From: a virus
Length of the DNA stretch: 41,059 bases
Strand: one strand, 5' to 3'
UHGV virus genome: UHGV-1274323
Part shown: positions 4,771-29,100 of the stretch, in pieces
Layout: every line of letters starts with the position of its first letter
How positions within the stretch are numbered: position 1 is the first letter of the stretch
The notes under the pieces: model-generated
Told to the model about the DNA's origin: nothing
Seen by the model: only the letters and a program-made list of their open reading frames with translations
Database searches by the model: none
Made by a program: the position numbers and the translations under genes

Positions 4771-4786
4771 AAAAGGAGGAAACAAT

Positions 4787-5728
4787 ATGTCGGTAGTTAG
4801 TCCGGAACAAATGGATTTTGGGGAAAAGAAATTTTCAATGATCATCAGCGGCCCTCCTGGAGTGGGGAAAACCACACTGGCTATGTCGGCGCCGGATCCG
4901 ATACTGGTAGATCTGGATAAAGGAGTGAGCCGGATCAAAGCACAGCACCGCCGGACCACCATCATTTGCGATACATACGAGGAGCTGCTTCAGGATATCC
5001 AGTGCAGCGCGGTGAAAGCAGCGCAGACCATTGTTATTGATACCGGGGGCAGCCTGGTGACCTATTTGCAGGATTGGGCCATGCGGGATAACCCCACGCT
5101 GAACCGGCAGAAGAACGGAGCGATCTCCCTCAAGGGGTTCGGCGCGGTAAAAAATGAATTTACCCGGTTTACCAATATGCTGCAGTACACGATGAACAAA
5201 AACATCATTTATATCTTTCATACCGTGGAAGAGAAAGACGGGGATCTTGTCAAGCAGAGGATCATGTGTGAGGGGGCCGCCCGAAACATTGTCTGGCAGC
5301 CGTGCGACCTAGGATGTTTTCTACAGGTTATGGGGGAAAAACGGTATATGGCCTTCGGCCCGGATGAGCACTATTATGCCAAGCGCTGCTACGGTATCCG
5401 GGGGTTGATCGAGCTGCCGGATCTGGATGGAGGAGCCCCTAACGATGCGCTGTCCCGGCTGTTTGCCCAGGCGCGGGAAAATATAGCGCGGGAGACGGAG
5501 CAATACAAGGCAGCGGAGCCGGCCTATCTGGCGGCTATGGAGGCCGGCCGCAACATCATCGGCGGAGTAGTGGATGGAGAAACTGCTCAAAAGGCGGTGA
5601 TCCAGATCAAACGCCTTGACCATGCTTTGACCAGCGAGCGGGAAATTCGTGCGCTCCTGACGGCGCGAATCAAGGAGCTGGGGCTGAAATGGGATAAGGA
5701 AGCGGGGGCTTACATTGCCGCAGAATAA
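4787..5728 (+). CDS. RecA-like AAA ATPase (AAA_24/Sak4-like recombination protein)
   Basis: RBS AAAAGGAGGA. Walker A SGPPGVGKTT, Walker B TIVIDTGG. It is followed by a PD-(D/E)XK nuclease and an SSB-like gene, as in Sak4-type phage recombination modules. Confidence 0.75.
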   Translation: MSVVSPEQMDFGEKKFSMIISGPPGVGKTTLAMSAPDPILVDLDKGVSRIKAQHRRTTIICDTYEELLQDIQCSAVKAAQTIVIDTGGSLVTYLQDWAMRDNPTLNRQKNGAISLKGFGAVKNEFTRFTNMLQYTMNKNIIYIFHTVEEKDGDLVKQRIMCEGAARNIVWQPCDLGCFLQVMGEKRYMAFGPDEHYYAKRCYGIRGLIELPDLDGGAPNDALSRLFAQARENIARETEQYKAAEPAYLAAMEAGRNIIGGVVDGETAQKAVIQIKRLDHALTSEREIRALLTARIKELGLKWDKEAGAYIAAE

Positions 5729-6317
5729 ACTGCTGTTGACCCAATCCCTTTTGTCGGCGTGGCTGTATCAATATACGGCATACGATACGAAAAAGGCCCA
5801 TGAAGACTTTGTGCGGGTATTGCAGAAAAAACCCACGCCGTCCAGCAAGGCGATACGGGACGGCATCCAGTTTGAGAACATGGTAACTGCTTACTGTGAG
5901 GGGGTGGAGCCGGAGCAGGGGCATGAATGGGCTGATGCCGTTAAAGAGGCCGGGCGGATACTTTGCGGGGCACAGTTTCAGGTGGCTGCCTATCGGGATA
6001 AGCGGATAGGCGGTGTGCCGTTCCTACTCTATGGTCGGCTGGACGCCCTAAAAGCCGGCGTCATTTACGATCTGAAATTCAGCAAAAGCTATGAAGCGGG
6101 CAAATACCTTGATAGCCCGCAGCATCCCATATACCTGGACTGCGTACCGGAAGCGGTGCGGTTCGTGTATGTGATTTCAGACGGCAAAGCTGTGTACACG
6201 GAAGAATACCGACGGGAAGAAGTAACTTCGCCCGACAGGATTATCTGTGAGTTTATGGCGTATTTGGAACAATCTGATTTAGCACAAACCTATATTGATT
6301 ATTGGAAAACCAATTAA
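5715..6317 (+). CDS. PD-(D/E)XK-family nuclease (Cas4/RecB-like phage exonuclease)
   Basis: The core GRLDAL…VIYDLKFSKSY fits the D…(D/E)xK catalytic signature. Probable TTG start overlapping the ATPase gene end. Confidence 0.55.
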   Translation: MPQNKLLLTQSLLSAWLYQYTAYDTKKAHEDFVRVLQKKPTPSSKAIRDGIQFENMVTAYCEGVEPEQGHEWADAVKEAGRILCGAQFQVAAYRDKRIGGVPFLLYGRLDALKAGVIYDLKFSKSYEAGKYLDSPQHPIYLDCVPEAVRFVYVISDGKAVYTEEYRREEVTSPDRIICEFMAYLEQSDLAQTYIDYWKTN

Positions 6318-6335
6318 AAAGGAGAAGAAAAAGCT

Positions 6336-6761
6336 ATGGGAATTTTTGATGATTTTGTTCGTGAAGAAGCGCCGCGTCTGGAGCCGGGAGATTATCGGGT
6401 GGAAATCACCGATGTGGAAGAGACCGTAAGCAAGTCCAGTGGAAACCCTATGCTGGTTATCACGGTGAAGCCCAACAATGTCAATATACGGATCAAACAC
6501 TATATCGTTAAAAACGAATACTTTAACCGTAACCTGACGGAGTTTTACAACAGTTTCAACATTGATTTTGGCGATCAAAATTTTTTAGGCTGGGTCGGAG
6601 CAGTGGGCGCTGCAAAGCTGGTGGAAGATGAGAATGGCTATATGAAAATCAAGCGCCTCATCCCGCTGGAGCGGCAGGACAACCTCCCGGCCTGGGTCGG
6701 GTCCGTTCCGGTCAGGCAAACTGTAGAAGGCTTTGTCTCAGACGACGAACTGCCGTTTTAA
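6336..6761 (+). CDS. SSB-like ssDNA-binding protein (DUF669-type) with acidic C-terminal tail
   Basis: 141 aa ending …VSDDELPF, resembling the SSB C-terminal D-D-D-I-P-F protein-interaction tail. The gene sits within the recombination module. Confidence 0.6.
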   Translation: MGIFDDFVREEAPRLEPGDYRVEITDVEETVSKSSGNPMLVITVKPNNVNIRIKHYIVKNEYFNRNLTEFYNSFNIDFGDQNFLGWVGAVGAAKLVEDENGYMKIKRLIPLERQDNLPAWVGSVPVRQTVEGFVSDDELPF

Positions 6762-6773
6762 GGCGGTGGCGGC

Positions 6774-7307
6774 ATGAAACGGCAGTATTCACAAAAAGAG
6801 ACGGAAACGCTGCTGAAATCCATGGCCGTGGTAGTAGATACCCGGGAGCAGGTGTGGTCGCACATTGAATCCGGCCTGAAATTGCTGAAATACCCTTGCG
6901 AAAGGGGAAAACTGGATTTTGGCGACTACACCTGTAAGCTTCCGGACTTGGGTGGTGGGCCGGTGATCTTTTCCGATGAGATTGTCATAGAACGCAAGGC
7001 GAATCTGGACGAGATCGCTACCAATTTCACGGTGGACCGGCGGCGTTTTGAGGCGGAATTCATTCGGGCAAAGGCGTCCGGGGTCAAGGTATTTCTCATG
7101 ATCGAAAATGCCTCCTGGGCGGATGTACTGACCGGCAACTACCACAGCCAACTCAAGCCTAACGCCTTTTCAGCGGCCTTGATGAGTTGGCAGGCTAAGT
7201 ACAACCTGACGATTATGTTTGTCCGACCGGAGGACAGCGCGCGTATCATTGCGGGGACCTTTTATTATTGGCTTCGGGCGCGTCTGGAAGGGGGCGGAGG
7301 CGTATGA
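6774..7307 (+). CDS. ERCC4/XPF-type nuclease domain protein (structure-specific endonuclease or resolvase)
   Basis: VVVDTREQ…FGDYTC…IVIERKANLDE matches the ERCC4 signature GDx(n)ERKx3D with the upstream VxVDxRE motif. Confidence 0.65.
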   Translation: MKRQYSQKETETLLKSMAVVVDTREQVWSHIESGLKLLKYPCERGKLDFGDYTCKLPDLGGGPVIFSDEIVIERKANLDEIATNFTVDRRRFEAEFIRAKASGVKVFLMIENASWADVLTGNYHSQLKPNAFSAALMSWQAKYNLTIMFVRPEDSARIIAGTFYYWLRARLEGGGGV

Positions 7308-9199
7308 ATCTGGGTGAACTGGAAGGCAGCGAAGAAAAAAACAGGCAATATACTCAGGACGATTTTCTATATACAACAGCCCCCTATGAAGAGGTATATC
7401 AGTACAAGGATGAGCCCTTTCAGCATGACCGGCATTTGTCCATCATGTGTGGCAAGGCGGCGGCGGTAGGAATCCGCAATTTCAAGACCCTATACAGCAA
7501 ATATACCCTGTCTCTTAAACGGGCGTCGGCGGATGTTTATATCTGCAATATGACACAGTTTGAGGGGCAGCCGATGGAACTGGATGCCGGAAGCTGGCAA
7601 TGCGATGAACGCGGAATCAGCCGCTGGAACGGGCAAAAAGAAGAGATCGCCTGTTGTCATCCCCTGATGCCGGTGGAACGGCTGGTCAATATTGATACAG
7701 GGGTGGAGAAGCTGAAGATCGCCTATTCCAAAGGGAAACGATGGCGGGAAATCATTGTGGACAAGCGGATATTGGCATCCGCTAACAGCATTGTCCAGTT
7801 GGCGGACAACGGCATTGCGGTCAACAGTGAAAATGCCCGATCACTGGTACAGTATCTAAGTGATATAGAAAATATCAACTATGACCGGCTTCCTGAACGA
7901 AAAAGCGTGGGGCGGTTGGGTTATATCGAAGGAGAGGGATTCTCTCCTTACGTGGATGGTCTGATCTTCGATGGGGATGCCAACTTTCGCACGCTGTTTT
8001 CCAGCATCACCCATCACGGGGAATACGACGAATGGCTGAAAACGGCCAGGGAGTGCCGACAGATGAGCCTTACAGCGAGGATCATACTGGCGGCCTCCTT
8101 TGCCAGCGCTCTAGTGGAGCCGCTGGGCAGCCTGCCATTTTTCGTACACCTGTGGGGGGTGGACAGCGGCACGGGCAAAACCGTCGCCCTGATGCTGGCT
8201 GCCAGTGTTTGGGGAGATCCTCAGATTGGGCGGTACATACAGACCTTTAACAGTACCGTGGTTGGACAGGAAAAGACGGCGGCATTTCTCAATTCATTGC
8301 CCATGCTGGTGGACGAGCTGCAGTTAGCGCGGGATGCCCGTGGAAAGACGCAGTTCAACATCTATTCCCTGGCTCAGGGAGTGGGACGTACACGCGGGAA
8401 TAAGTCGGGAGGCGTGGACCGTACTCCTACCTGGTCAAACTGTATTCTGACCACGGGGGAATCGCCGCTGACCAATACCAGCGACGGTGCAGGGGCCATG
8501 AATCGCGTGATCGACATTGAATGCAAGGCGTCCGAAGTGGTGATCACTGACGGTATGCGGATTTCCGCGAACCTGAAGAAGCATTACGGCTATGCAGGAC
8601 GTGCATTTGTCAGCGGATTGTCCGGCGAAGGGGTATTGGATCAGGCAAGGTATTTGTATCAGGAGGTATTCCGCGCACTTTCGGAGAACGACACCACTGA
8701 AAAACAGGCGATGGCGGCGGCGGTGATCTTGACCGCGGATGCGCTGGCAACCCAGTGGATATTCAAGGATGAGACGCCCCTGACGGTATCGGAAATCTCA
8801 GAATTTTTGCAGTCGAAGGCAGCGGTATCCGCCGGAGAAAGGGGCTACCGGTATATGTGCGACTGGGTGGCACAGAACGTCAACCGTTTTCTTCCTTATG
8901 CGGAGACGGGAGATGTATACGGAGTTATAGAGCCGGAGGTTATAGGGACGCTGAAAACAGGATACGATTCCGCTTTCATCATCAATTCCCGATTCCGGCA
9001 GACAGCGGAGGAAGCAGGCTTTTCTAGCGCTGCGCTATTGAGTTACCTAAAGCAGTCGAACCTTATACAGGTACGGGGGCGGAACAATACCCGGGGAAAA
9101 CGGATCAACGGGTTACTCACTGAGTGTGTAGTTATGCGCATAGGGACAGGGTGCGAAGAGGACGACCCGGAGGAAGATCCGGACATTATCGAAATATAA
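7304..9199 (+). CDS. Replication protein: DUF927/D5-like SF3 helicase-primase family
   Basis: ATGA overlap with the previous gene. P-loop HLWGVDSGTGKTVALMLAASVWG. Its size (631 aa) and position upstream of the iteron field fit this role. Confidence 0.65.
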   Translation: MNLGELEGSEEKNRQYTQDDFLYTTAPYEEVYQYKDEPFQHDRHLSIMCGKAAAVGIRNFKTLYSKYTLSLKRASADVYICNMTQFEGQPMELDAGSWQCDERGISRWNGQKEEIACCHPLMPVERLVNIDTGVEKLKIAYSKGKRWREIIVDKRILASANSIVQLADNGIAVNSENARSLVQYLSDIENINYDRLPERKSVGRLGYIEGEGFSPYVDGLIFDGDANFRTLFSSITHHGEYDEWLKTARECRQMSLTARIILAASFASALVEPLGSLPFFVHLWGVDSGTGKTVALMLAASVWGDPQIGRYIQTFNSTVVGQEKTAAFLNSLPMLVDELQLARDARGKTQFNIYSLAQGVGRTRGNKSGGVDRTPTWSNCILTTGESPLTNTSDGAGAMNRVIDIECKASEVVITDGMRISANLKKHYGYAGRAFVSGLSGEGVLDQARYLYQEVFRALSENDTTEKQAMAAAVILTADALATQWIFKDETPLTVSEISEFLQSKAAVSAGERGYRYMCDWVAQNVNRFLPYAETGDVYGVIEPEVIGTLKTGYDSAFIINSRFRQTAEEAGFSSAALLSYLKQSNLIQVRGRNNTRGKRINGLLTECVVMRIGTGCEEDDPEEDPDIIEI

Positions 9200-9200
9200 C

Positions 9201-12382: not shown

Positions 12383-12471
12383 CCGCCTTTTTGCCTGGGG
12401 AGAAAAAAGGACGGAAGAGCGGTATGCTGGAAGGAGAAAGGACGGGAAACCGGAATGAGCAGGTGGTGAGG

Positions 12472-12972
12472 ATGGCGCGGCTGACCGAAAAGCAAAAGCG
12501 TTTTGTATCGGAATATCTGGTTGATCTGAATGCCACGCGCGCTGCCCAGCGGGCGGGATACAAAGATCCCAATATCGGACGGCAGCTCAAAACGAAAAAT
12601 AACGTTTCGGCAGCCATTCAGAAGGCTATGGAGAAACGCGAGAAAAGAACGGAAATAACTCAGGACCGGGTATTGGAGGAGCTGGCCGCCATCGGTTTTG
12701 CCAAGGGGACGGATTACGCGCAGATACAGTCAAACGGCCATGTGAGCCTTACCCCCACGGAGGTGCTGACAGAGGGACAAAAGGCGGCGGTTCTGGGGGT
12801 CAGGGAAACACAGTACGGTGTGGAGATCAAGCTGGCGGACAAGGTGCGGGCCCTGGAACTGCTGGGCAAGCATCTGGGGTTGTTTGCCGGGCGCGTTCCG
12901 GAGGAAGAGGGGACCGGCGGTGTCATTGAGATCGGTGCGGTGCTGCCGGACGAAACGGAGGGGACGCCATGA
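12472..12972 (+). CDS. terS: Terminase small subunit
   Basis: MARLTEKQKRFVSEYLVDLNATRAAQRAGY… is the hallmark N-terminus of P27-type small terminase. It overlaps the large-subunit start. Alternative upstream starts are at 12391 and 12424. Confidence 0.8.
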   Translation: MARLTEKQKRFVSEYLVDLNATRAAQRAGYKDPNIGRQLKTKNNVSAAIQKAMEKREKRTEITQDRVLEELAAIGFAKGTDYAQIQSNGHVSLTPTEVLTEGQKAAVLGVRETQYGVEIKLADKVRALELLGKHLGLFAGRVPEEEGTGGVIEIGAVLPDETEGTP

Positions 12973-14405
12973 GCGCAATCTGGTCGCCTCAACCCAAACA
13001 ACTGGCGTTTATGGCGCGGCCGGAATATGAATGCCTGTACGGTGGAGCGGCGGGGGGCGGAAAAAGCGACGCCCTGTTATGCGAGGCCCTGCGGCAGGTA
13101 TCGATCCCTCATTACAGGGGGCTGATTCTGCGCAAGACCTATCCGCAGCTCACCGAGCTCATCGACCGCAGCCGGGAGCTGTACGGCAGGGCGTTTCCAG
13201 CGGCGAAATACAACGGGACGGAACACTGCTGGACCTTTCCCTCCGGGGCAAAAATCTATTTCGGTTCCATGCAGTACACCAAGGACCGGGTGAACTACCA
13301 GGGCAAGCGGTACGACTACATCGCTTTCGACGAGCTGACCCATTTCAGCTGGGAGGAATACAGCTACATGTTTTCCCGCAACCGGCCCAGTGGACCGGGG
13401 ACCCGGTGCTATATCCGCGCCGCCACCAACCCGGGAGGCATTGGTCACGGCTGGGTCAAAGAGCGGTTCATCACGGCGGCGCCGCCCCTGACACCCATCG
13501 AGAGCCGAATGACAGTGACCGGGCCGGACGGCCGCGGCATAGAAGTGACCCGCCGGCGCATTTTCGTGCCGTCCACGGTCTTTGACAATCAGGCATTGCT
13601 GCAGAACGATCCGCAATACATAGCCAGTCTATCCATGCTTCCGGAGGCGGAGCGCCATGCGCTGCTGTATGGCTCCTGGGACAGCTTTGACGGCCAGGTG
13701 TTCCGGGAGTGGCGCAACGATCCCGCCCATTACGACGATCAGCGATGGACCCATGTGGTCCGGCCGTTCCGTATCCCGGGCCACTGGCGGGTATTCCGGG
13801 GCTTTGACTTCGGTTATGCCAAGCCCTTTTCCGTGGGCTGGTATGCGGCGGACGAGGACGGGAGGCTGTACCGCATCGCAGAGTATTACGGCTGCACCGG
13901 CACCCCCAACACCGGTGTGAAAATGAACCCGGTGGAGATCGCGGCCCAAATCAAACGGATCGAAGGCGAGGAGGAAAATCTCAAGGGGAGGATGATCCAG
14001 GGGATTGCCGACCCCTCCATCTTTGACGAAAGCCGGGGAGAGAGCGTGGCCGCCATGATGGGGCGGGCCCCAAACTTCGTGTACTGGACAGGTGGGGACA
14101 ACACCCGGCTGGCGGGAAAGATGCAGTTCCATTACCGGCTGGCCTTCGACGAGGAGGGCAGACCCATGTTGCAGGTATTTGACACCTGCCGTCATTTTAT
14201 CCGCACGCTGCCCTCCTTGGTGTATGACGAGAAACGGGTGGAGGACATCGACACCGATCAGGAGGATCACATCTACGACGAATGCCGGTATGTGCTGATG
14301 GAAAACCCCATTTCCCCGAGGAAAAACGAGGCGGCGAAGCCACCGGCGGAGGATCCGCTGGATCTGGCGCCAAAACGGGACCCCTATCAATTTTACCGGA
14401 TGTAA
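12969..14405 (+). CDS. terL: Terminase large subunit
   Basis: 478 aa. Walker A YGGAAGGGKSDA. Position and size are typical, with ATGA coupling to terS. Confidence 0.9.
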   Translation: MSAIWSPQPKQLAFMARPEYECLYGGAAGGGKSDALLCEALRQVSIPHYRGLILRKTYPQLTELIDRSRELYGRAFPAAKYNGTEHCWTFPSGAKIYFGSMQYTKDRVNYQGKRYDYIAFDELTHFSWEEYSYMFSRNRPSGPGTRCYIRAATNPGGIGHGWVKERFITAAPPLTPIESRMTVTGPDGRGIEVTRRRIFVPSTVFDNQALLQNDPQYIASLSMLPEAERHALLYGSWDSFDGQVFREWRNDPAHYDDQRWTHVVRPFRIPGHWRVFRGFDFGYAKPFSVGWYAADEDGRLYRIAEYYGCTGTPNTGVKMNPVEIAAQIKRIEGEEENLKGRMIQGIADPSIFDESRGESVAAMMGRAPNFVYWTGGDNTRLAGKMQFHYRLAFDEEGRPMLQVFDTCRHFIRTLPSLVYDEKRVEDIDTDQEDHIYDECRYVLMENPISPRKNEAAKPPAEDPLDLAPKRDPYQFYRM

Positions 14406-14423: not shown

Positions 14424-16358
14424 ATGCAGGAACAAATCGGAAAGGCGCCGGAGGCGAACGGTGTCCGGTTGGTGAGTATTTCGCCGGAGACGGCGGGGCA
14501 GGCGGCGGAGTCCGCTGTTCCGGCCGGGCGGATCGGAGAAGAAGAGATTCGGGAAGCCGCCCGGGTTCTACAGGAATACAAGCGGGGCAAGGCCAATCTG
14601 GAGGCCCGCATCATCGACAACGAGCAGTGGTGGAAGCTGAGGCATTGGGAACAGATCCGAAAGAAGAACGAGCACGACCCGGAACCGGTATCGGCCTGGC
14701 TGTTCAACTCCATTGCCAACAAGCACGCGGACGCCATGGACAACTTCCCCGAGCCCAGCGTACTGCCCCGGGAGGAGGGGGACAAAGAGGACGCCCGGGC
14801 CCTGTCCTCCATCCTGCCGGTGGTATTGGAGGAAAACGGGTACGAACAGACCTATTCGGACAAATGGTGGTATAAGCTCAAAACCGGTACAGGGGTGGAG
14901 GGCGTTTTCTGGAACCCCGGAAAGCTGGGAGGGCTGGGAGACATCGAGATCCGTAGGTTGGATCTGCTGTCCCTGTTCTGGGAGCCGGGTATCCGGGACA
15001 TCCAGAAGTCCCGAAACGTCTTTCATGTGGAGCTGGCCGACAACGATCTGCTGGAGCAGCGGTATCCTCAGCTCAAGGGGACGCTGGGCACTTCCACGGT
15101 GGATGTGGCGCAGTACGTCTATGACGATGCCGTGGACACCTCCCATAAATCCGCCGTGGTGGATTGGTACTACAAGCTGGAGGAAGGGGGCCGGACCCGG
15201 CTGCATTACTGCAAGTTTGTGAACAGCTGTCTGCTGTATGCGTCGGAGAACGATCCCCTGTATCAGCAGAGGGGGTTTTACGATCATGGGGAATACCCCT
15301 TCGTGTTCGACCCCCTGTTTATGGAAGAGGGCACGCCGGCGGGGTTCGGTTATATCGACATTATGAAAAGTCCCCAGCTGTCCATTGACAAACTGAACCA
15401 GGTGATTCTGAAAAACGCTCTTATGTCGGGGAAAAAGCGGTTCTTTATCCGTGCGGACGGGGCGGTCAACGAAGAGGAGTTTGCCGACTGGAGCCGCGAT
15501 TTTGTCCATGTGCAGGGCAACCTGGGGGAGGACAGCATACGGGAAATCGAGACGCGGCCGCTGGATTCTATCGTAGCCACCGTTATGCAGTTAAAGATCG
15601 ACGAAATCAAGGAGACCTCCGGCAACCGGGATTTTTCTCAGGGAGGGACCACCTCCGGCGTGACGGCGGCCTCCGCCATTGCGGCGCTGCAGGAGGCGGG
15701 AAGCAAGCTGTCCCGGGATATGATCAAAGCCTCTTATCGGGCCTTTACCCAGGTATGCACCCTGTGCGTGGAGCTGATTCGCCAGTTTTACGATGAGCCC
15801 CGGCAATTCCGCATCCTGGGGGAGCGGGGCGCCATGGAATTTATCCAGTACAGCAACGCCGGGATACGTCCTCAGGAGCAGGGGCAGGCCTTTGGAGTAG
15901 AGCTGGGGTACCGGCTGCCGGTATTCGATATCAAGATCCGGTCACAGAAGAGCAGCCCTTTCTCCAAGCTGAGCCAGAATGAGATGGCGAAGGAGTTCTT
16001 CGGCATGGGCTTCTTTCGGCCGGATATGGCGGATCAGGCCCTGTCCTGTATGGAGATGATGGACTTTGAGGGCAAGGATGCGGTGATGAACCGGGTAGCG
16101 CAGAACGGCACGCTGTATCAGATGGTACAGCAACTCCAGCAGCAGGTGATTCAGCTGGCGGCCATTGTGGACGCGCAGAATGGGACGGCCATTGCCCCGG
16201 GAGCAGCCGCTGCGGATTTGGGAAAGGTTGCGGCTCCCAAAGAAGGGAGCGGGACGGCGGTGGAGACCAATCCCCTGGGCGCGGCGGTGCAGTCCTCCCG
16301 GAATACGGATGCGGCGACAGCACGGAGCCGGGCCATGAACGCGGCCAGGCCGCAGTAG
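14424..16358 (+). CDS. Portal protein
   Basis: 644 aa, directly downstream of terL with RBS CAGGAGGCG. Order and size are canonical. Confidence 0.8.
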   Translation: MQEQIGKAPEANGVRLVSISPETAGQAAESAVPAGRIGEEEIREAARVLQEYKRGKANLEARIIDNEQWWKLRHWEQIRKKNEHDPEPVSAWLFNSIANKHADAMDNFPEPSVLPREEGDKEDARALSSILPVVLEENGYEQTYSDKWWYKLKTGTGVEGVFWNPGKLGGLGDIEIRRLDLLSLFWEPGIRDIQKSRNVFHVELADNDLLEQRYPQLKGTLGTSTVDVAQYVYDDAVDTSHKSAVVDWYYKLEEGGRTRLHYCKFVNSCLLYASENDPLYQQRGFYDHGEYPFVFDPLFMEEGTPAGFGYIDIMKSPQLSIDKLNQVILKNALMSGKKRFFIRADGAVNEEEFADWSRDFVHVQGNLGEDSIREIETRPLDSIVATVMQLKIDEIKETSGNRDFSQGGTTSGVTAASAIAALQEAGSKLSRDMIKASYRAFTQVCTLCVELIRQFYDEPRQFRILGERGAMEFIQYSNAGIRPQEQGQAFGVELGYRLPVFDIKIRSQKSSPFSKLSQNEMAKEFFGMGFFRPDMADQALSCMEMMDFEGKDAVMNRVAQNGTLYQMVQQLQQQVIQLAAIVDAQNGTAIAPGAAAADLGKVAAPKEGSGTAVETNPLGAAVQSSRNTDAATARSRAMNAARPQ

Positions 16359-16369
16359 GAGGATAGAAG

Positions 16370-16705
16370 ATGACAACGGTGGAATACAGCAACCGGGGCG
16401 GGATGTTCCGCCTGAAGGCGGACGGTCATGCTGGATGGGAGGGGACGGAGCCCGGTCGTGATTTGGTGTGTGCGGCGGAATCCATGCTGGCCTATACCCT
16501 CCTGCAATCCCTGCAGGATGCCAGGGAGCGAGGATGGATTCAGGAGCTGGATACCGATATCTGGGACGGCGGCGTATTGGCGGAGGCAGTTCCCGCCCCC
16601 GACGGCATGGTCCGGGTCGCCACCATTTACCGCACGGTATTGACCGGCTACCGGATGCTCTCGAGGCGGTATCCGCACAACGTGGAGGTGCTAGTGGACC
16701 GGTGA
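16370..16705 (+). CDS. prp: Prp-family cysteine protease (ribosomal-processing protease homologue)
   Basis: ADGHAGWEGTEPGRDLVCAAESML matches the Prp/YsxB His-Cys dyad region (GHAx…DxVCAAVS). It lies between the portal and scaffold genes. Confidence 0.7.
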   Translation: MTTVEYSNRGGMFRLKADGHAGWEGTEPGRDLVCAAESMLAYTLLQSLQDARERGWIQELDTDIWDGGVLAEAVPAPDGMVRVATIYRTVLTGYRMLSRRYPHNVEVLVDR

Positions 16706-16843
16706 CGGAAATATTTTTTCTCGCCGCATGCAAGCGGGGAGAAATGGGAAACGGGATGCGCTATGCTGATCATGGCAGGGGAATCCGCAGGAGTGCGGAA
16801 ACCGGCTGGCTCTTGGGAAAGACCATGAAAGGAAGGGACAAAA

Positions 16844-17845
16844 ATGAACGAAACAAAGGGATTGCTCCAGCTGAATCTGACGCTGTTTGACGGCGGAGAG
16901 GGAGGCGGAGCTCCCACGGGCGATACAGCGCAGGGCCTTCCCGACGCCGGGGGAGGCAAACGGGCGAATCCGCTTGCTCATGTGGTATACGGCAAGGTGT
17001 CTCCCGATGACGGAGGCCCCGTGACGCATGCTGGGAAGGAGCAGCAGAATCCTCAGGACGCCGCTGAGAAACCCACATCCGATCCGAACGCGGCACCTCC
17101 GCCGGAGGCGGACAAGGCCGGGGATAAGACCGGCGGCAAGCGGGCCGCTTTTGAGGAGCTGATCCGCGGAGAATACAAGGATCAGTTTAACGCCCGCATG
17201 CAGAAGATCATCAACCAGCGCTTTCGGGAGACCAAAAACCTACAGGCGCAAGTGGACGGAGCACGTCCGATTCTGGACATGCTGGCGCAGAAATACGGGG
17301 TATCCGGCGGGGACCTGAAGAAGCTGGCGGCCGCCATCGAGGAGGACGACGCCTACTATGAAAAAGAGGCGCTGGACCGGGGTGTGTCGGTAGAGCAGCT
17401 CAAGCAGATGCGCCGCGTGGAGCGGGAAAACGCGGAGCTGCGCCGCAGCATTCAGGAATCCCGGCGCCGGGAGGAGGCTGACCGGGTATATGCCGGATGG
17501 GTGAAGGAGGGGGAGGCCCTCAAGGAGATTTATCCGGCCTTTAACCTGGAAACGGAGGTTCAGGACCAGCGATTCACCGATCTGCTCCGCAACAACATCG
17601 ATCTGCGAACAGCCTACGAAGTGGTGCATCGGGATGAGATACTGGGCGGCGCCATGCAGTATACGGCCCGGCAGGTGTCGGAAAAGCTGGTGAACGATAT
17701 CAAGGCTAAAGGCAGCCGGCCCACCGAAAACGGGGTATCGGCCCAGAGCGCGGCGGTGGTGAAATCGGATGTGAATGCTTTGACCCGGCAGGACCGGGAC
17801 GAAATTGAAAGACGGGTCATGCGGGGAGAACGGATTGTTTTTTGA
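16844..17845 (+). CDS. Scaffolding protein
   Basis: 333 aa, highly charged, coiled-coil-rich, between portal and capsid. The N-terminus MNETKGLLQLNLTLFDGG carries a Prp-type cleavage motif. Confidence 0.6.
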   Translation: MNETKGLLQLNLTLFDGGEGGGAPTGDTAQGLPDAGGGKRANPLAHVVYGKVSPDDGGPVTHAGKEQQNPQDAAEKPTSDPNAAPPPEADKAGDKTGGKRAAFEELIRGEYKDQFNARMQKIINQRFRETKNLQAQVDGARPILDMLAQKYGVSGGDLKKLAAAIEEDDAYYEKEALDRGVSVEQLKQMRRVERENAELRRSIQESRRREEADRVYAGWVKEGEALKEIYPAFNLETEVQDQRFTDLLRNNIDLRTAYEVVHRDEILGGAMQYTARQVSEKLVNDIKAKGSRPTENGVSAQSAAVVKSDVNALTRQDRDEIERRVMRGERIVF

Positions 17846-17884
17846 CGCCGGTAATCCGCGGAGGCCCAAAGAAAGGATGACGGT

Positions 17885-18907
17885 ATGAAAAACGCACAGT
17901 ATTGGCTGGATCTGCAGCTGTTTGCGACGGTGACGCAGACCACCACCCTGAACGGTTCCGGGAACGATCTGTCCCCGGAAATGAAAACCTACTATGAAAA
18001 GCGGCTGCTGGACAATGCGGAGCCCAATCTGGTTCATGACCAGTTTGCCGACAAGTATCCCATTCCGAAAAATGGGGGCAAAACTATCGAATTCCGCAAA
18101 TACAGTCCCCTGGCCAAGGCGACCACAGCCATCACGGAAGGGGTAACCCCCGATGGCAACAAGCTGAATGTGACGGCTATCACCGCCACCATTGCCCAGT
18201 ACGGCGACTGGATTCAGATGTCCGATCTGCTGGACCTGACGGCCATTGACAACAACGTGCTGCAGGCGACCAAGCTGCTGGGCAGCCAGAGCGGCCGCAC
18301 CCTGGACACCATCACCCGGGAGGTGCTGGCGGGCGGTACCAACGTGATCTATGCCCCTAAGGTAGCCGACGGTGTGGAAACGGCTGTTACCTCCCGCGCC
18401 GGACTGGATGCTACGGCCAAGATCAACGTGGATCTGATTTTTAAGGCGGCCCGGGCGCTGAAAGCCATGAACGCCAACAAGATTGACGACAGCTTCGTGG
18501 CCATTGTGCATCCCGATGTGGCGTATGACCTGATGCGCTGCGAGGAGTGGATCGACGCCCACAAGTACGCCACCCCGGACAACATCTATCAGGGGGAAAT
18601 CGGCAAGATGGGCGGCGTGCGGTTCGTGGAATCCACCGAGGCCAAGATCTGGACCGGTTCCGGCTGTCCGTCCGGCCTGGCGGTGTACGGCACAGTGGTG
18701 CTGGGAGCCCACGCCTACGCCACCACTGAGGTCACCGGCGGCGGACTGCAGCATATCATCAAGCAGCTGGGCTACGGCGACGATCCGCTGAACCAGCGCA
18801 GCTCCTGCGGCTGGAAGGCCACCAAGGCGGCCAAGCGCCTAGTGGAGGAATACATGGTGCGGATCGAATCCTGCTCCTCTTTCTCCTCCACGGCCACCGC
18901 CAACTGA
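17885..18907 (+). CDS. Major capsid protein
   Basis: 340 aa following the scaffold gene. N-terminal Prp-type motif WLDLQLFATV. A strong terminator follows downstream. Confidence 0.75.
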   Translation: MKNAQYWLDLQLFATVTQTTTLNGSGNDLSPEMKTYYEKRLLDNAEPNLVHDQFADKYPIPKNGGKTIEFRKYSPLAKATTAITEGVTPDGNKLNVTAITATIAQYGDWIQMSDLLDLTAIDNNVLQATKLLGSQSGRTLDTITREVLAGGTNVIYAPKVADGVETAVTSRAGLDATAKINVDLIFKAARALKAMNANKIDDSFVAIVHPDVAYDLMRCEEWIDAHKYATPDNIYQGEIGKMGGVRFVESTEAKIWTGSGCPSGLAVYGTVVLGAHAYATTEVTGGGLQHIIKQLGYGDDPLNQRSSCGWKATKAAKRLVEEYMVRIESCSSFSSTATAN

Positions 18908-23189: not shown

Positions 23190-26100
23190 ATGACATTCCG
23201 GGACTATCTGAAAAACAGGGGCAGGGAGGAAAAGGAGGATTCCGCACTGACTCGGCTGGCGGAGAAAAAGGTCTCCAGCACTGAAAGCGAAAGGATGAGC
23301 TTCCGTGATTTCCTGCGGGGCGCCGGACAGGACAGCACGTCCGGCGGCGCTCAGGACAACCTATTCACACAGATCAAGGAGGAGCGCCGGGCCAGAAGCT
23401 GGGCAAATTCGGCGGATTCTTTCCTTCAAAAGATTCAAAACGACTATTCCGCCCGGCATGAGGGCGGATATCAGTCACCGGAATCCATACAGGAATATAA
23501 GAAAAGCGTATCCAGCGAGCTACAAGAGCTACTGGACGGGGTGAAGGATGCTAAGCAATTCGCTTCTCAGATCACGGACGAGGAGAAACGGAAAAAATAC
23601 GAAAAGATGGTTAGCGATACCCAGCATTACCTGCAATCTGTGGACTGGCGTCTGGATCTGGAGGAGAGATACTGGGACAAGTGGGATTCGGAGGACAGCT
23701 ATAACCAGTGGAAAAAGGAATATGACCGGCAAAAGGAGCTGGACAGTTATCAGCAATCCATTTTAAGCCGGCCGGACTTTGAGGAATATGCCCGAAAGGG
23801 GGCAGCTACAGAAAATATATCGCTCCGCGACGCCACGGATGCACGCGGGCAATTCCGTTCGGGGAGCGACGAATTGATCGGAAACAAGGTTACCTTTACC
23901 CGGGATAATGCGCAGTCTCGTCCGTGGGAGACCGCGGCGCACAGCTCAATAAAACCCGATATCGAGGAACGCTATACCTATATGACGGATGACGAAGTAT
24001 CGATATACAATTACCTGCTGGCCAAAGAGGGAGAAGAAAAAGCCGATGAATATCTGGCCACGCTTACTCCCTATTTGAATTACCGGCAGGGCGAGGATAT
24101 GGCGGAGAAACGGAAAGGGTCGTTTCTGGATACTGTCGGGCTTTCTTTGACTTCCGGGCTCGATCAGTTTATAAGCGGCGTGCGCGGCTGGTTTACAGAG
24201 GAGGCAGAGCCGGTTTCCGCCACGCAAATAGCGGCGGAGCTGGCACGGGAAAATATCGGCTCCGATATCGGAAAATTCGCTTTTGATGCGGGGCGGGTGC
24301 TGGGCAACATGGCTCCGTCCATAGCTCTCGGAATGGTGACCGGTGGGGTTGGATCGGCGGCAGGATTGGGGACCGCCGGGGTACAGATGGCCAATGCTGT
24401 CGGCACAGGTCTATCCGTCGGCGCCAGTGCCGGCGGCAACAATTATCAGCAGGCGCTGCGGGAGGGGTATTCCGTACCGCAGGCGCGAACCTATGGCCTG
24501 ACCACCGGGGCATTGGAAGCGGGGCTGCAGACCGTCCTCGGCGCGACGGCTAAAGGCGCTGGCCTTGTCACCTCCAAGGTTTCCTCCTCACTGAGCAATC
24601 TGGTAAAAAGCGCCTCTCAGAAAGTAGCGGTAAAGGTGGGCATGTCCGCTTTGGGCGAGGGGTTCGAGGAATATCTGCAGGAAATCCTGAACCCGGTGGT
24701 GCGCAACCTGACGCTGGGAGAAGACAATGAGTTCCAGCTGTTCACGGAGGAAGCCCTATACAATGGGATGCTGGGAGCTATCACCGGCGGGCTGTTCTCC
24801 GCGGCGGATGCGGGAGCAAGCCGGGTGTCCAATCCGTTCTTCAGCGTGTATGGTACAGAGGGAAGCGTATCCACCCAAACGGATGAAAGCGGCAATGTGC
24901 TGGGGTACATGCACTTTAACCGCCAGGGGGATATTGACGGGTATGTCCGGGTAGCCAAGGATGGAGAAGCGGCCATCCATAAGCCGTTTACCTCCTATGA
25001 GAATATCCAGGCTTATGCCTATGTGGACAAGGAAGGTGTGACCCAGTATGGGCGGGTCAACGCGGACGGAGAGGTGGTGACCGGGTCCTTTCGCCCGAAT
25101 GACACCGCGGATGCCGGTGCAGCGTCTTCCGTAGAAGCCGATGCGGTATCTTCTACGGAGACGGCGACGGGAAGTGTGGATACTCATGCGGCGGACGGAC
25201 CGGCGAACATTCCGGCGCTGTACCAGCTGGCGCAGGACGCGGCGGCCAACCGGCAGGCAACGCCGGCCGGGACGGCAAAGGGAGCGGTTCGGACAAATGG
25301 AACGCCGGCCGCAGATGGGGAAAACATACGGGCGGCTTCGGCACGCCCGGAAGACACAAGCCGTGCCGCCACAAGCGGCCAGCAGGGCGGCACAATAGCC
25401 AATACGGGCATTCGGACAGACCACACAGCGGAAGCCAATGCGCTTCTCGCCATTTCGGGACAGGAGGCCGCTCCGGTGACCGTTTCGGGAATCGGCTCCG
25501 TGGAGGACGGCAACGTCCGGGTAACCCTTTCCGGCGGGGAAACGGTATCGCTGGAGGATGTGTCCTTCGACAGCCAGGAGACGGAGAGCCTGTATTATGC
25601 GGCGTCTGATTATACCACCCCAACGGCCCGGGCCTTTGTGTCCGGATATACAGGAGAATTGCCGCTGAAAACGTACAAGGTGGCATTTGACTTCATCCGC
25701 AGTCAGGCCAGGGAGGGAGTATCCTTTGACACGGCGGTAAAGCAAGCGGGCCTTGCGGGACAGATGATGGGCCTGGAAGCGCAGCAGCTGGCCTGGTATT
25801 CCGGCGTGAATGAAACGGCGGCGTTGCACAAAGCCGGTGAAAATGGTACGATATCTACAACGAAAGAAGGGAGTAGGGACAATGGAGAAGAAGAAATCCA
25901 TATTCGACAATATCAGGGTTCCGCTGGAGGACCTGACGGAGGAACAAGAAAAGAAAATAAAAAGCGATCCGAATTATCAAAAAGATCTGGAGGAGTCCAG
26001 GAAACGCCACAAAGAGTGGAAAAAAGCTTATCGGGAGCAACAAAAAAGAGAAAACGAGTAGTCATTTCTTCCAACGAGGGAAATTTCTCATTTGATTCCA

Positions 26101-29100
26101 TTCATCAGGACTCGTTGACTTCAAGGCAGAGAGCTCTTGTTCAAAAAAGCGCTGAATACGGATATGAGCTGCACTATTTTACTAAGGGGACCGTATTCAA
26201 TGATGGGGAAGAGGATAAGATTATTGATAAGCAGGCGTTTATGATCCCCGGTCTAAACGCCATCTTTGCCATGGATGGTCAGGACATAGATTTCCTTCAC
26301 CATGAGCTGTTTCATCAGTTTTTTGATGAGAACAAGCATGGAGAACGGGCGTTGTTTAATGGTGTTAATAACAATGCCAACGAAGACAGTGCGCAATGGG
26401 AGTATTATCGAAATCGGGCGAAAGAAGCATACCGACGCGAAATCCCCGACGAACTGCTCATAGAAGAAATCACCGCTGACCTTTGTGAATACGCCATGTC
26501 GGGATCGGAACAGATGCACCGGCGCCTGGATGGACTGTTTCCGGATGGGATGCTGGAGAAGCTGGCGGGGCAGGCGCGGGATGTGTTTGCGGCGAACAGG
26601 AAAGGAGAAAAAGGAAAAGCCGCCGAAGAAGCCGGCGGCGTGAGGTATTCGCTGGAAGGCTACACGGAGCATCAAAAGGAAAACTGGGCCAACAGCAAAA
26701 GTATTGTCCTGTATGAAAGCCAGGAGCAGTTGGAGAGGTTCATTGATGATGCGCTGGACAAAAGAAATCTCAGCAAAAAATTGTATTTTGGCCGGATACC
26801 TAATGAATTGGCTGAACGGGTAATGCGTGAAACTGGAATAAACATAAAAGGATATAATTGTACCATTCAGGCTCAGGAAATACGTAAAATCCTTTTGCAC
26901 TCACATGGAGACAGTGAGAGTGAACAGATGCGGGGACAGAGAGCAGTTACACGAGAAGATATCCTTCAAATTCCAGAAGTGATCGAATCCCCCGATATCA
27001 TTCGGCTTTCGTCCAAGCTATATGAAGGCAAGCCAGTTCTTCAATTTGTAAAAACCGTCGAAGGGAAAACCACGGTAGTATCATATGTTTCAAAAAAGCA
27101 TCGGGATTTAGCGGTTCAGACGATGTATGCAGGCATAAAGAAAGGAAGCCTTGCCACCGCGACAGATGCTCCGACGAGCGGCCCCCTGTCTCTCACGTCC
27201 GAAACGACCGTTGGTACAGCTTCCAATAACAGTATAGCAAAAAGCGTGAATACTGTCAACGATAGTCTTTCCCAAAGCGGCGCCGGTGTGATCTGGGAAA
27301 CGCCGGAAAATGAAGTTTCGGAATGGATTCGGGATCAGGCGGCGGTGCTGGACGCCATCGGGAAAGAATTCGGCTATCGTTTCCTTATCCGTTCCTCCCT
27401 GCTGGGAGGCAAGGCAAACGGACAGACAGTCCCCGGCAGCCGGGAGATCGTTCTTTCGGCGGACAGCATGGAGGAAGCGCTGCTGTACTGGGCGGGGCAT
27501 GAGGTGATCCATGATCTGCAGGTCAGCTATCCGGAGGGCTATGAGGAGATTTCCCGTCAGGTGCTGGAGTATCTGGGACAGCAGGAGCGCTTTGATCTTA
27601 ACCGGAGGAAGCAGCAGCTGATCAGGGAATACCGGCGCGGCGGACTGGAGCTGACGGAAGAAGAGGCGGAGGAGGAAATCGTCTGCAACGGCGCGGCCGT
27701 CGCTTTTGCCGACGAGGATTTCATCCGGGGATGTGCGGAAAGAAACCGGAGTCTGTTGGAATGGCTGAAGGAAAAGCTGAACAGCCTGCTAGCGCGCATC
27801 CGGGAGGTGCTGGCCCGGCTGACGCGGACCAACCCGGAGGTGCGTGCTTATGCGAAAGCCCCCCTGGAGACTCTTACCCGGTTGCAGCAGTCGGTGGAGA
27901 CGGCGCTGCGGGAAAGTGCCGGGAGGGCAGGCGGCAGGCAGTCCTTCCGGCGGTCCATGACCACGCGCACGAGTACGGACAGCCAGGGGAGGACACTGTC
28001 ACCGGAACAGGAGGAATTCTTCCGCAACAGTGCGATCCGGGACAAGGACGGTCATCTTCAGGTGATGTATCATGCCACGGATGCTCAGTTCACGGTGTTT
28101 GATAAGAAAAAGCAGGGAACTGTCACCGATGGCGGGATTTGGGGCCGTGGTTTTTACTTTGATGTAGAGGAATCCTTTGCCCTGGAGTTTGGGAGCAAGG
28201 CCACCGCGTATTATCTCAACGTAGCCCGGCCTTACCGCACTACCTATGAGGCTACCTGCGGGGAAATCATGGAGCTGTTCCGGGAAAACGGCATTCGAAT
28301 CCGTTTCCGCATGGACCCCGAAGAAGGATTGAATCGATTCATCCGCCGGTTTGGATATAAAAAGTTCAGCGAGGCGCTGCGCTTCCTGGGGTATGACGGG
28401 GTATTTGTCTCCGGGAATGAATGCGCTGTATACGAGCCCAATCAGATCAAGCGGATTGACAACCTGTCTCCGACGGAACAGGAGGATGTGCGCTATGCGG
28501 CCAAAGAAAAGCGGGGGCTGCGGTATTCCCTGCAGAATGTGGATGGAGCGGACATCGACAGTCTGACAGAGGAGAATGAGGCGCTGCGGCGCCAGGTGGA
28601 GCTGCTGAAGCAGGAGTTCCGGTTGACGGAGGGACACCAGGTAAGCAAGGCGGCAGTGGAAGGACTGGCGGCCAAGGTTCTGCGGCAGACCAAGAGTGTG
28701 TATGACAAGGACACGCTGGCGGGAAATCTGCAAACGGTGTTTCGCTACATAGCCAACGACCCGGAGGCCAATTTTCAGGAGACGATGGAGGTGCTCACCG
28801 ACATTGCCGGGAGCGTCCTTCAGGAATCCACGTCGATGAATCGTGACCTGTACAACGAGTACGCCGACATGCGGGAATATTTCCGAAAGACCCCGTTGTC
28901 CCTGTCGGAGGCGGCGAAAGCCGAGCTGACAGACGGCTATGCGGATTTTCGTTCCCGCAATTTCGGTATGCTCAATTTGAGATCGGGCGGAACTCTTCTG
29001 AATGAACTGTGGGGTGAAATCTGCGAAAAATGGCCGCAGTTCTTTGATGCGGATCTTGCCGAGACGGAACAGCCGTATGCGGTAGTAGACGCGCTGAATG

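What the first reader, a model, noticed from the sequence alone, without database searches (positions are those of the whole stretch)
16370..17940. Phage-encoded Prp-family protease with matching cleavage motifs on its neighbouring scaffold and capsid proteins
The 111-aa protein between portal and scaffold has the Prp/YsxB His-Cys signature (…DGHAGWEGTEPGRDLVCAAESML…). Bacterial Prp removes the N-terminal extension of ribosomal protein L27 by cutting after the Phe-Phe of a conserved LNLQFF|A motif. In some staphylococcal phages the host Prp also trims scaffold and capsid proteins carrying the same motif. Here the phage carries its own Prp. The two downstream proteins begin MNETKGLLQLNLTLF|DGG… (scaffold) and MKNAQYWLDLQLF|ATV… (major capsid). 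Both contain L-x-L-Q/T-L-F-(A/D) close to the N-terminus. This predicts an autonomous head-maturation cleavage system that replaces the usual prohead protease.
Basis: partly seen in the sequence, partly recalled or inferred. Interest (0 to 1): 0.75.

Follow-up and report, generated by a model that had tools for sequence, protein, structure and literature searches.

The report
Phage-encoded Prp protease with matching head-protein motifs
A temperate gut-Clostridia phage carries its own copy of the small cysteine protease (Prp) that bacteria use to trim ribosomal protein L27, and its scaffold and capsid proteins start with the sequence that Prp cuts.

Summary

- **Protease.** ORF 16370-16705 (111 aa) is a full-length Pfam Peptidase_Prp member (42.6 bits, cut-off 27). 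It keeps every residue shown to be essential in S. aureus Prp. Its model matches only Prp crystal structures.
- **Position.** It lies between a P22-type portal and a scaffold-like protein followed by an N4-gp56-type capsid protein.
- **Motifs.** The published L27 cleavage motif [DN]LQ[FL]F|A occurs once in the six-frame translation of the window, at capsid residues 9-14. A relaxed form occurs twice, at the scaffold and capsid N-termini. Shuffles give about 0.
- **Other proteases.** No other head protease family was found.
- **Relatives.** In about 160 related loci from Oscillospiraceae and Faecalibacterium, the order portal-Prp-scaffold-capsid recurs 129 times and the motif is conserved. In 55 loci Prp and scaffold form one reading frame with the motif at the junction.
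- **Most likely mechanism (inferred).** The phage Prp cuts after Phe15 of the scaffold and Phe13 of the capsid protein.

It is not new in kind. Host Prp processes phage 80alpha head proteins. Phage Cp-1 encodes a family C108 protease. Cultured phages phiFL3A, BL3 and Fontainebleau show the same gene-plus-motif set, annotated only as 'peptidase'. Cleavage itself is untested, and the host Prp cannot be excluded.

The parts
14424..16358 (+). Portal protein (P22-type). It marks the upstream border of the head-assembly module.
   Evidence: PF16510 at E=4.4e-33; phrog_156 at 4e-92.
16370..16705 (+). Phage-encoded Prp-family (MEROPS C108, clan CR) cysteine protease, 111 aa. Predicted catalytic residues are His20 and Cys34. 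The supporting residues are Gly19, Ala21, Gly29, Asp31 and Ser38.
   Evidence: PF04327 at 42.6 bits (cut-off 27), covering profile positions 1-89 of 90. phrog_4478 'peptidase'. G19, H20, G29 and C34 are invariant, and A21, D31, S38 are at least 90% conserved, in 39 diverse phage homologues. The AF2 model has pLDDT 91.4. The top 14 Foldseek PDB hits are Prp structures with probability 1.0. It scores only 30 bits against NCBIfam ribosomal-Prp equivalogs, whose cut-offs are 136-201.
16812..16827 (+). Conserved 16-nt element CTTGGGAAAGACCATG just upstream of the scaffold ribosome-binding site. It may form a small hairpin (stem TGG/CCA, loop GAAAGA). Its role is unknown. A translational operator is one idea, but that is only inference.
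   Evidence: It is the only copy in the window, with 0.11 expected. It is exact and at the same place in 36 related loci. The stem varies as TCG/CGA, TGG/CCA and GCG/CGC. There is no Rfam match.
16844..17845 (+). Scaffold-like protein, 333 aa. The assignment rests on position and homology.
   Evidence: phrog_13908 at 5.5e-94, function unknown. Its C-terminus aligns with the scaffold part of Prp-scaffold fusions. It lies between the protease and the capsid gene, as in relatives.
16871..16891 (+). L27-like motif of the scaffold, L10-N-L-T-L-F15|D16. The predicted cut is after Phe15.
   Evidence: It is conserved as L(N/D)L(T/A/R/Q)LF|(D/G) in relatives with a separate Prp gene, and as xLQ(L/M)F|A(E/D)GG at the Prp-scaffold junction of fusions.
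17885..18907 (+). Major capsid protein (HK97 fold, N4-gp56 family), 340 aa.
   Evidence: PF25209, phrog_1357 and TIGR04387 at 323 bits.
17906..17926 (+). L27-like motif of the capsid protein, L8-D-L-Q-L-F13|A14. The predicted cut is after Phe13.
   Evidence: It is the only match in the window to the published L27 motif [DN]LQ[FL]FA (motif from PMC9405229). The motif is near-universal at this position in the Clostridial clade of this capsid family. It is absent from Bacillus phage Page and Paenibacillus phage API480.

Best explanation
The 111-aa ORF is an active phage-encoded member of the Prp cysteine protease family. It sits in the gene slot that prohead proteases usually occupy: portal, protease, scaffold, capsid.

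Its predicted substrates are the next two gene products. [quoted passage not shown] The enzyme would bind the hydrophobic L-x-L-x-L-F stretch and cut after the Phe. That removes 15 residues from the scaffold (MNETKGLLQLNLTLF|DGG) and 13 from the capsid protein (MKNAQYWLDLQLF|ATV), during or just before procapsid assembly. This is what host Prp does for phage 80alpha.

Shown here:
- family membership, catalytic residues and fold;
- synteny;
- non-random occurrence and conservation of the motifs;
- absence of another head protease;
- existence of Prp-scaffold fusions in relatives, with the motif at the junction.

Inferred:
- that cleavage occurs;
- that the phage enzyme rather than the host one performs it;
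- the timing of cleavage and its importance for assembly.
For: - **Family.** Pfam Prp scores above the gathering threshold over the full length.
- **Residues.** The essential SaPrp residues G21, H22, D31, C34 and S38 (PMC9261936) correspond to G19, H20, D31, C34 and S38. These are invariant or at least 90% conserved in 39 and 64 homologues.
- **Fold.** The model has pLDDT 91. Its disordered His-to-Cys loop resembles unliganded SaPrp, and only Prp structures are top PDB hits.
- **Motif statistics.**
- **Synteny.** In 129 related loci the order portal-Prp-scaffold-capsid is kept.
- **Capsid motif.** It is kept while the surrounding N-terminal residues vary.
- **Scaffold motif.** It is kept in at least 36 of 42 dereplicated Prp-carrying modules. 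It is missing in 3 of the 4 that lack Prp.
- **Fusions.** In 55 loci Prp and scaffold share one reading frame, with xLQ(L/M)F|A(E/D)GG between the domains. These are called as single 317-477 aa genes in thousands of metagenome clusters.
- **Unrelated capsid types.** Cultured phages Fontainebleau, phiFL3A and BL3 also pair a Prp gene with motifs on both scaffold and capsid.
- **Published precedent.** Host Prp cleaves 80alpha scaffold and capsid at the same motif (PMC5744158). The Cp-1 protease is placed in family C108 and removes 48 residues of the head protein (PMC12445089).
Against: - There are no experimental data for this phage.
- The scaffold site has Thr at P3 and Asp at P1'. In SaPrp, substrates with P3 Gln changed to Ala or Glu were reported as uncut (PMC9261936, citing unpublished data).
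- Relatives without a phage Prp (L003, L105, L143, L167) still have the capsid motif, so a host Prp can presumably serve.
- In 80alpha, cleavage of either protein is dispensable for viability (PMC5744158).
- The window protein has no scaffold-like extension that would carry it into the procapsid.
- An AF2 monomer model of a natural fusion did not place the junction motif in the active site. Its pLDDT there was below 50.
Confidence: 0.65

Rival explanations
1. The host's ribosomal Prp cuts the capsid protein, and perhaps the scaffold, as in 80alpha. The phage copy is redundant, a dosage booster, or needed only for the non-canonical scaffold site.
For: Hosts of relatives are Oscillospiraceae, Ruminococcaceae and Faecalibacterium. 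These are Firmicutes, which encode Prp and a long L27 (PMC12324487). Prp-less relatives keep the capsid motif. The capsid site DLQLF|AT resembles the clostridial L27 N-termini listed in PMC9405229 (C. tetani NLQLF|ATKK).
Against: The phage Prp gene is retained in 42 of 46 dereplicated modules with all catalytic residues intact. It is physically fused to the scaffold in 55 loci. A redundant gene would not be conserved this way.
Confidence: 0.17
2. The L27-like peptides act mainly as assembly or folding signals, and Prp acts mainly by binding them in a chaperone-like way. Cleavage would then be incidental or absent.
For: In 80alpha the intact scaffold N-terminus is essential for assembly, whereas cleavage is dispensable (PMC5744158).
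Against: The nucleophile Cys, the His and the oxyanion or loop residues are invariant in the phage clade. A pure binding role would not require that.
Confidence: 0.1
3. The phage Prp targets host proteins during infection rather than head proteins. Candidates are pre-L27 or FlhB-like proteins with the same motif.
For: The family's ancestral substrate is L27. FlhB has been proposed as another substrate (PMC9405229).
Against: The gene is embedded in the late head module next to two motif-bearing proteins, and it is fused to the scaffold in relatives. It scores far below the ribosomal-Prp equivalog cut-offs.
Confidence: 0.05
4. The resemblance is coincidental. The ORF would be a degenerate or inactive Prp-like domain and the motifs chance strings.
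For: None beyond the low pairwise identity (20-26%) to solved Prps.
Against: See the motif statistics, the conservation in relatives and the fold match.
Confidence: 0.01

Closest known systems
S. aureus Prp acting on phage 80alpha scaffold gp46 and capsid gp47 (Wall et al. 2015; PMC5744158, PMC9405229)
   Same: The protease family is the same. The motif type is the same: NLQFF|A and NLQHF|A in 80alpha against NLTLF|D and DLQLF|A here. It lies at the extreme N-terminus of both scaffold and capsid, and the removed peptides are of the same length (13-15 residues).
   Different: In 80alpha the protease is the host's essential ribosomal enzyme and the phage encodes none. Here the phage has its own divergent copy in the head module. 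The capsid family (N4-gp56 type, podovirus-like portal) and the hosts (gut Clostridia) also differ.
Streptococcus phage Cp-1 protease (orf13; Martin et al. 1998; placed in MEROPS C108 according to PMC12445089)
   Same: It is a small (104 aa) phage-encoded protease with the Prp fold or family that processes the major head protein. Its SOCP orthologue matches the window model with probability 1.0 and TM about 0.7.
   Different: Cp-1 orf13 scores only 18.5 bits on Pfam Prp, below the cut-off. It removes 48 residues at ...ARINH|ATV, which is not an L27-like site. The gene lies after the collar genes rather than between portal and scaffold. No scaffold site is known.
Unstudied Prp homologues annotated 'peptidase', 'DUF464', 'YsxB-like' or 'cysteine protease' in Firmicutes phages. 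Examples are Enterococcus phiFL3A gp45, Brochothrix BL3 gp6, Acutalibacter phage Fontainebleau, Lactococcus TP712/PLgT-1, the Oenococcus phiS11 group, and PHROG 4478.
   Same: A Prp gene lies next to the portal, and the scaffold and capsid both begin with xNLQ(L/F/I/K)F|(A/D).
   Different: The capsid and portal families differ (SPP1-type siphoviruses with MuF). I found no paper in the held library that describes the pairing or tests it.
Protease-scaffold nested or fused genes of classical prohead proteases (lambda C/Nu3, herpesvirus UL26/UL26.5). This comparison rests on my own knowledge.
   Same: In 55 relatives, Prp and scaffold form one reading frame with a cleavage motif at the junction. 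This is the architecture that delivers a protease into the procapsid.
   Different: The window itself has two separate genes 138 nt apart. The protease fold is clan CR (Cys), not the serine families. Only short N-terminal peptides appear to be removed.

Membership tests
Prp / Pfam PF04327 / MEROPS C108 | Full-length match to the family profile above the curated threshold | tested here: met
   42.6 bits against a cut-off of 27, E=7e-11, profile positions 1-89 of 90.
Prp / Pfam PF04327 / MEROPS C108 | His-Cys dyad plus Gly before His, the loop Gly, the Asp three residues before Cys, and the Ser four residues after Cys. These correspond to SaPrp G21, H22, G29, D31, C34 and S38. | tested here: met
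   G19, H20, G29, D31, C34 and S38 are present. They are invariant or at least 90% conserved in alignments A1 and A2. They align with GHA...D(I/V)VCA..S of 2IDL and 2G0I. Roles are taken from PMC9261936.
Prp / Pfam PF04327 / MEROPS C108 | Prp fold | tested here: met
   The AF2 model has pLDDT 91.4 and pTM 0.84. Foldseek PDB ranks 1-14 are all Prp entries (2g0j, 2g0i, 2idl, 7kld, 7jvs, 1s12, 4peo) with probability 1.0 and TM 0.6-0.86.
Prp / Pfam PF04327 / MEROPS C108 | Endopeptidase activity after Phe of the (D/N)LQ(F/L)F|A motif; homodimer | not testable with these tools
   This needs an enzyme assay. Matching motifs are present on neighbouring proteins.
Ribosomal Prp orthologue (rplU-prp-rpmA operon enzyme) | Score above the NCBIfam equivalog cut-off, and the ribosomal operon context | tested here: not met
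   The best equivalog score is 30.5 bits against cut-offs of 136-201. The gene lies between a phage portal and scaffold. It is therefore a divergent phage lineage of the family, not the housekeeping enzyme.
Prohead (capsid maturation) protease, as a functional class | Gene located between the portal and the scaffold or capsid genes of the late operon | tested here: met
   The same order occurs in 129 related loci.
Prohead (capsid maturation) protease, as a functional class | Recognisable cleavage sites in head proteins | tested here: met
   The capsid site fits the published motif exactly. The scaffold site fits with Thr at P3 and Asp at P1'. Both are conserved in relatives.
Prohead (capsid maturation) protease, as a functional class | A means of delivery into the procapsid, such as a scaffold-like extension or fusion | tested here: inconclusive
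   None exists in the 111-aa window protein. In 55 relatives it is present as a Prp-scaffold fusion.
Prohead (capsid maturation) protease, as a functional class | Homology to the classical families (HK97 gp4/U35-S78, T4 gp21/U9, lambda C/S49, ClpP/S14) | tested here: not met
   No such Pfam or PHROG hit was found for any ORF tested in the window.
80alpha-type Prp substrates | L27-like motif within the first ~15 residues, Phe at P1, a small residue at P1', Gln at P3 | tested here: met
   This row is for the capsid protein: L8-D-L-Q-L-F13|A14.
80alpha-type Prp substrates | The same feature, tested on the scaffold protein | tested here: inconclusive
   The site is L10-N-L-T-L-F15|D16. P1, P2, P4 and P6 fit. 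P3 is Thr and P1' is Asp. Among relatives with a separate Prp gene, P3 is Q 14, T 3, A 3, R 2 and C 2.

The most novel reading that the evidence does not exclude
Clan-CR Prp enzymes are a distinct and widespread class of true capsid-maturation proteases in Firmicutes phages. Under this reading:

- In the very abundant Faecalibacterium-type prophages, the enzyme enters the procapsid as an N-terminal fusion to the scaffold and frees itself at the junction motif.
- In the window's lineage the two genes have split. They are separated by a conserved small RNA hairpin that may set the protease-to-scaffold ratio.
- The phage enzyme has relaxed P3 specificity (Thr, Ala or Arg tolerated). This would make head processing independent of the host's ribosomal Prp.
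Probability: 0.3. Interest if true: 0.6.

Novelty: new member of a known kind. Interest (0 to 1): 0.4.

Why it matters
If it is confirmed, it would have three consequences.

- **A fuller evolutionary series.** It would link phages that borrow the host's L27-processing protease (80alpha) with phages that carry a Prp-family enzyme of their own, either as a separate gene or fused to the scaffold.
- **A tractable system for an open question.** It is still unclear what the short Prp-removed peptides do in capsid assembly. Co-expression in E. coli, which has no Prp, would be a clean test.
- **Better annotation.** A very common gene of human-gut Clostridia prophages is now labelled only 'peptidase', 'YsxB-like' or hypothetical.

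Because Prp is being pursued as an antibiotic target, divergent phage enzymes with altered P3 preference could also inform studies of specificity.

Tried and rejected
- **tblastn of the window Prp against the 50,697 phage records.** It found nothing at E<=1e-3. This was a sensitivity failure, not absence. A more typical clade member as query found 33 records, and profile searches found the gene in the closest faecal contigs.
- **AF2 model of a natural 317-aa Prp-scaffold fusion.** The aim was to see whether the junction motif docks in the active site. The Prp domain was confident, but the motif region had pLDDT below 50 and was drawn as a helix. This is uninformative, because SaPrp binds its substrate at a dimer interface and only a monomer could be modelled.
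- **Association between scaffold motif and phage Prp.** After dereplication only 4 Prp-less complete modules remain. The Fisher p of 0.02 is not phylogenetically corrected. I treat this as suggestive only.
- **Prp-scaffold intergenic region.** There was no Rfam match, no promoter or terminator consensus, and an unremarkable fold energy (z = -1.4).
- **Papers not held.** Wall 2015, Wall 2017 and Martin 1998 could not be read. Statements about them rest on secondary papers.
- **Literature hits for 'Prp' in several phage papers.** These turned out to be 'PRPP' or generic text.
- **Other Prp substrates in the window.** None was found with the relaxed motif. A loose match in TerS (HLGLF|AG, 12874) looks like chance.
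Full report
**1. The observation**

The 41-kb window looks like a complete temperate phage. Its gene content is:

| Coordinates | Strand | Assignment |
|---|---|---|
| 38578-39621 | - | integrase |
| 39757-40392 | - | HTH plus S24 repressor |
| about 4700-9200 | + | replication module |
| 12391-12972 | + | TerS |
| 12969-14405 | + | TerL |
| 14424-16358 | + | P22-type portal |
| 16370-16705 | + | the 111-aa ORF |
| 16844-17845 | + | 333-aa scaffold-like protein |
| 17885-18907 | + | N4-gp56-family major capsid protein |
| downstream of 18907 | + | presumed tail genes, without family matches, and a 3192-aa polyvalent protein |
| 36673-37749 | + | amidase |

None of the ORFs tested matches a classical prohead protease family.

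**2. Is the 111-aa protein a Prp?**

Yes, on five lines of evidence.

- It matches Pfam Peptidase_Prp end to end at 42.6 bits (cut-off 27) and PHROG 4478 'peptidase'.
- phmmer against the PDB finds the S. pneumoniae and S. mutans Prp structures, with the GHA...D(I/V)VCA..S block aligned.
- Mutagenesis and the crystal complex of S. aureus Prp identify G21, H22, D31, C34 and S38 as essential, with G29 as the second hinge of the mobile loop (PMC9261936). The window protein has G19, H20, G29, D31, C34 and S38.
- In an alignment of 39 diverse phage homologues, G19, H20, G29 and C34 are invariant, and A21, D31 and S38 are at least 90% conserved. A second alignment of 64 database homologues gives the same picture.
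- An AlphaFold model (pLDDT 91.4) has low confidence only in the His-to-Cys loop, the segment that is disordered in unliganded SaPrp. Its 14 best PDB matches are all Prp entries.

It is not the housekeeping enzyme. It reaches only 30 bits on NCBIfam 'ribosomal-processing cysteine protease Prp' equivalogs, whose cut-offs are 136-201. It also sits in a phage head module.

**3. Are the motifs more than chance?**

The published L27 consensus is MLxx(D/N)LQ(F/L)F|A(S/H)KK (PMC9405229).

- The core [DN]LQ[FL]FA occurs once in the six-frame translation of the whole window, at capsid residues 9-14.
- The relaxed [DN]L[QT][FL]F[AD] occurs twice, at the scaffold and capsid N-termini.
- Shuffled sequence gives 0.01 and 0.0 occurrences.

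**4. Evidence from relatives**

I fetched 160 loci through the capsid protein. Eighty came from IMG/VR and eighty from genomes, the latter nearly all Oscillospiraceae, Ruminococcaceae, Faecalibacterium and other Clostridia. A further twelve loci came from other look-ups. I searched all of them and the window with iterated profiles.

*Gene order.* The order portal-Prp-scaffold-capsid recurs in 129 loci.

*Capsid motif.* The capsid N-terminus varies in length and sequence, but the block (L/M)x(L/M)Q(L/M/Y/F)F|A(D/E/T/V/Q) is almost universal. Bacillus phage Page and Paenibacillus phage API480 share the capsid family but have neither the motif nor a Prp gene. The motif is therefore not a property of the fold.

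*Scaffold motif.* The scaffold N-terminus carries L(N/D)L(Q/T/A/R)LF|(D/G/A) in most loci with a separate Prp gene.

*Fusions.* In 55 loci the Prp domain and the scaffold lie in one open frame, with xLQ(L/M)F|A(E/D)GG between them.

- These are called as single genes of 317-477 aa.
- They are very abundant: 3786 clusters at E<=1e-10, and one cluster has 4660 members.
- This is the architecture by which classical prohead proteases reach the inside of the procapsid. That comparison is from my own knowledge.

*Prp-less relatives.* After dereplication at 90% capsid identity, 42 of 46 complete modules carry Prp.

- At least 36 of those 42 have the scaffold motif.
- The four without Prp mostly keep the capsid motif but lack the scaffold motif.
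- The sample is small and not phylogenetically corrected, so this is suggestive only.

**5. Most likely mechanism**

The phage Prp probably trims 15 residues from the scaffold and 13 from the capsid protein, by cutting after Phe. This parallels host Prp acting on 80alpha gp46 and gp47, where 13 and 14 residues are removed (PMC5744158).

Four points remain uncertain.

- The scaffold site has Thr at P3. In SaPrp, Gln at P3 organises the catalytic loop, and Q-to-A or Q-to-E substrates were reported as uncut (PMC9261936). Either the phage enzyme is more tolerant or the scaffold is cut poorly.
- The hosts should have their own Prp (PMC12324487), so autonomy is not shown.
- In 80alpha, cleavage is dispensable, whereas the intact scaffold peptide is essential (PMC5744158). 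The biological role may lie in the peptide rather than in its removal.
- A monomer model of a natural fusion gave no information on docking.

**6. Comparison with what is known**

The kind is known in three respects.

- **Host Prp on phage head proteins.** This is established for 80alpha.
- **A phage-encoded enzyme of the same MEROPS family.** The Cp-1 protease is placed in C108 (PMC12445089).
  - Cp-1 orf13 is much more divergent: 18.5 bits on Pfam Prp.
  - It cuts a site that is not L27-like.
  - Its SOCP orthologue nevertheless shares the fold with the window model.
- **The same pairing in cultured phages with unrelated capsids.** Each has a Prp gene next to the portal, and the motif on both scaffold and capsid.

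| Phage | Scaffold N-terminus | Capsid N-terminus |
|---|---|---|
| Acutalibacter phage Fontainebleau | ...NLQLF\|DDGG | ...NLQLF\|DTDA |
| Enterococcus phiFL3A | ...NLQFF\|AEKD | ...NLQIF\|AAKT |
| Brochothrix BL3 | ...NLQLF\|AEPGE | ...NLQKF\|AAGK |

Records and UniProt call these genes 'peptidase', 'DUF464', 'YsxB-like' or 'cysteine protease'. I found no paper in the held library that describes or tests the pairing. The primary Prp papers could not be read, so an earlier mention cannot be excluded.

**7. Verdict**

I classify the window's system as a new member of a known kind.

- **Family assignment:** confidence about 0.97.
- **Proposed cleavage by the phage enzyme:** confidence about 0.65.
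- **Interest:** moderate, 0.4.

The most interesting extension lies in relatives rather than in the window. It is the abundant Prp-scaffold fusion, together with a small conserved element upstream of the scaffold gene in the loci where the two genes are split.

Noticed in passing
window 16812-16827 (+), in the 138-nt gap between Prp and scaffold: The 16-nt element CTTSGGAAAGACSATG lies directly upstream of the scaffold ribosome-binding site. It occurs once in the window and is exact at the same spot in 36 related loci with otherwise diverged sequence. It is compatible with a 3-4 bp hairpin with loop GAAAGA. The stem varies as TCG/CGA, TGG/CCA and GCG/CGC, with changes on both sides. It has no Rfam family. 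It was found only in loci where Prp and scaffold are separate genes; fused loci have no intergenic gap. It may be a translational operator or processing site.
   Followed up: partly
L001 4835-5788; L036-L091 and L108-L115 (55 loci); proteins P0150, P0182, P0238, P0267, P0268: Prp and scaffold are fused in one reading frame, with the cleavage motif at the junction (for example ...GKQEMMDLQLF|ADGGE). The fusions are very abundant in gut metagenomes; one 90% cluster has 4660 members. The AF2 monomer model did not show the junction docked.
   Followed up: partly
window 23190-32768 (+): A single 3192-aa ORF carries PBECR3 nuclease and ART-PolyVal ADP-ribosyltransferase domains. This is a 'polyvalent protein' of the type described by Iyer et al. 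2017 (PMC5512222). The corresponding giant protein in relatives L006 and L007 carries a TNT toxin domain instead.
   Followed up: no
L037 and L038, capsid gene N-terminus (about 5875-6010): The capsid protein carries the cleavage motif twice in tandem (KLDLQLFAKGVAVAQTQLDLQLFATQTT).
   Followed up: no
L089 about 2760-2900; also L071, L114, L001 2868, L050 5857, L080 10464 and others: A dispersed repeat of about 100 nt (core GGGAGGAGYTGTTGGGGCMGCGGCC) occurs in Faecalibacterium-type prophages. In L071, L089 and L114 it is inserted in frame right after the Prp-scaffold junction motif and is followed by a second copy of the motif. In L089 the 19-nt GATTTGCAGCTGTTTGCGG occurs on both sides, so cleavage at the second site would excise the insertion from the scaffold. 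It is absent from the window and has no Rfam family.
   Followed up: partly
L097-L102, L117, L138, L139, L155, L165 (genome contigs): In these loci a scaffold plus a motif-bearing capsid gene has no portal detected within 5-6 kb upstream. In the two loci examined (L100, L139) no terminase or portal ORF appears there either; the large plus-strand ORFs look non-phage instead. These may be remnants or satellite-like elements that depend on host Prp.
   Followed up: no
window 12874 (+), TerS residues about 160-168: There is a loose Prp-like string, GKHLGLF|AGRV, near the C-terminus of the small terminase. It is probably chance: 12 loose matches against 5.5 expected.
   Followed up: no
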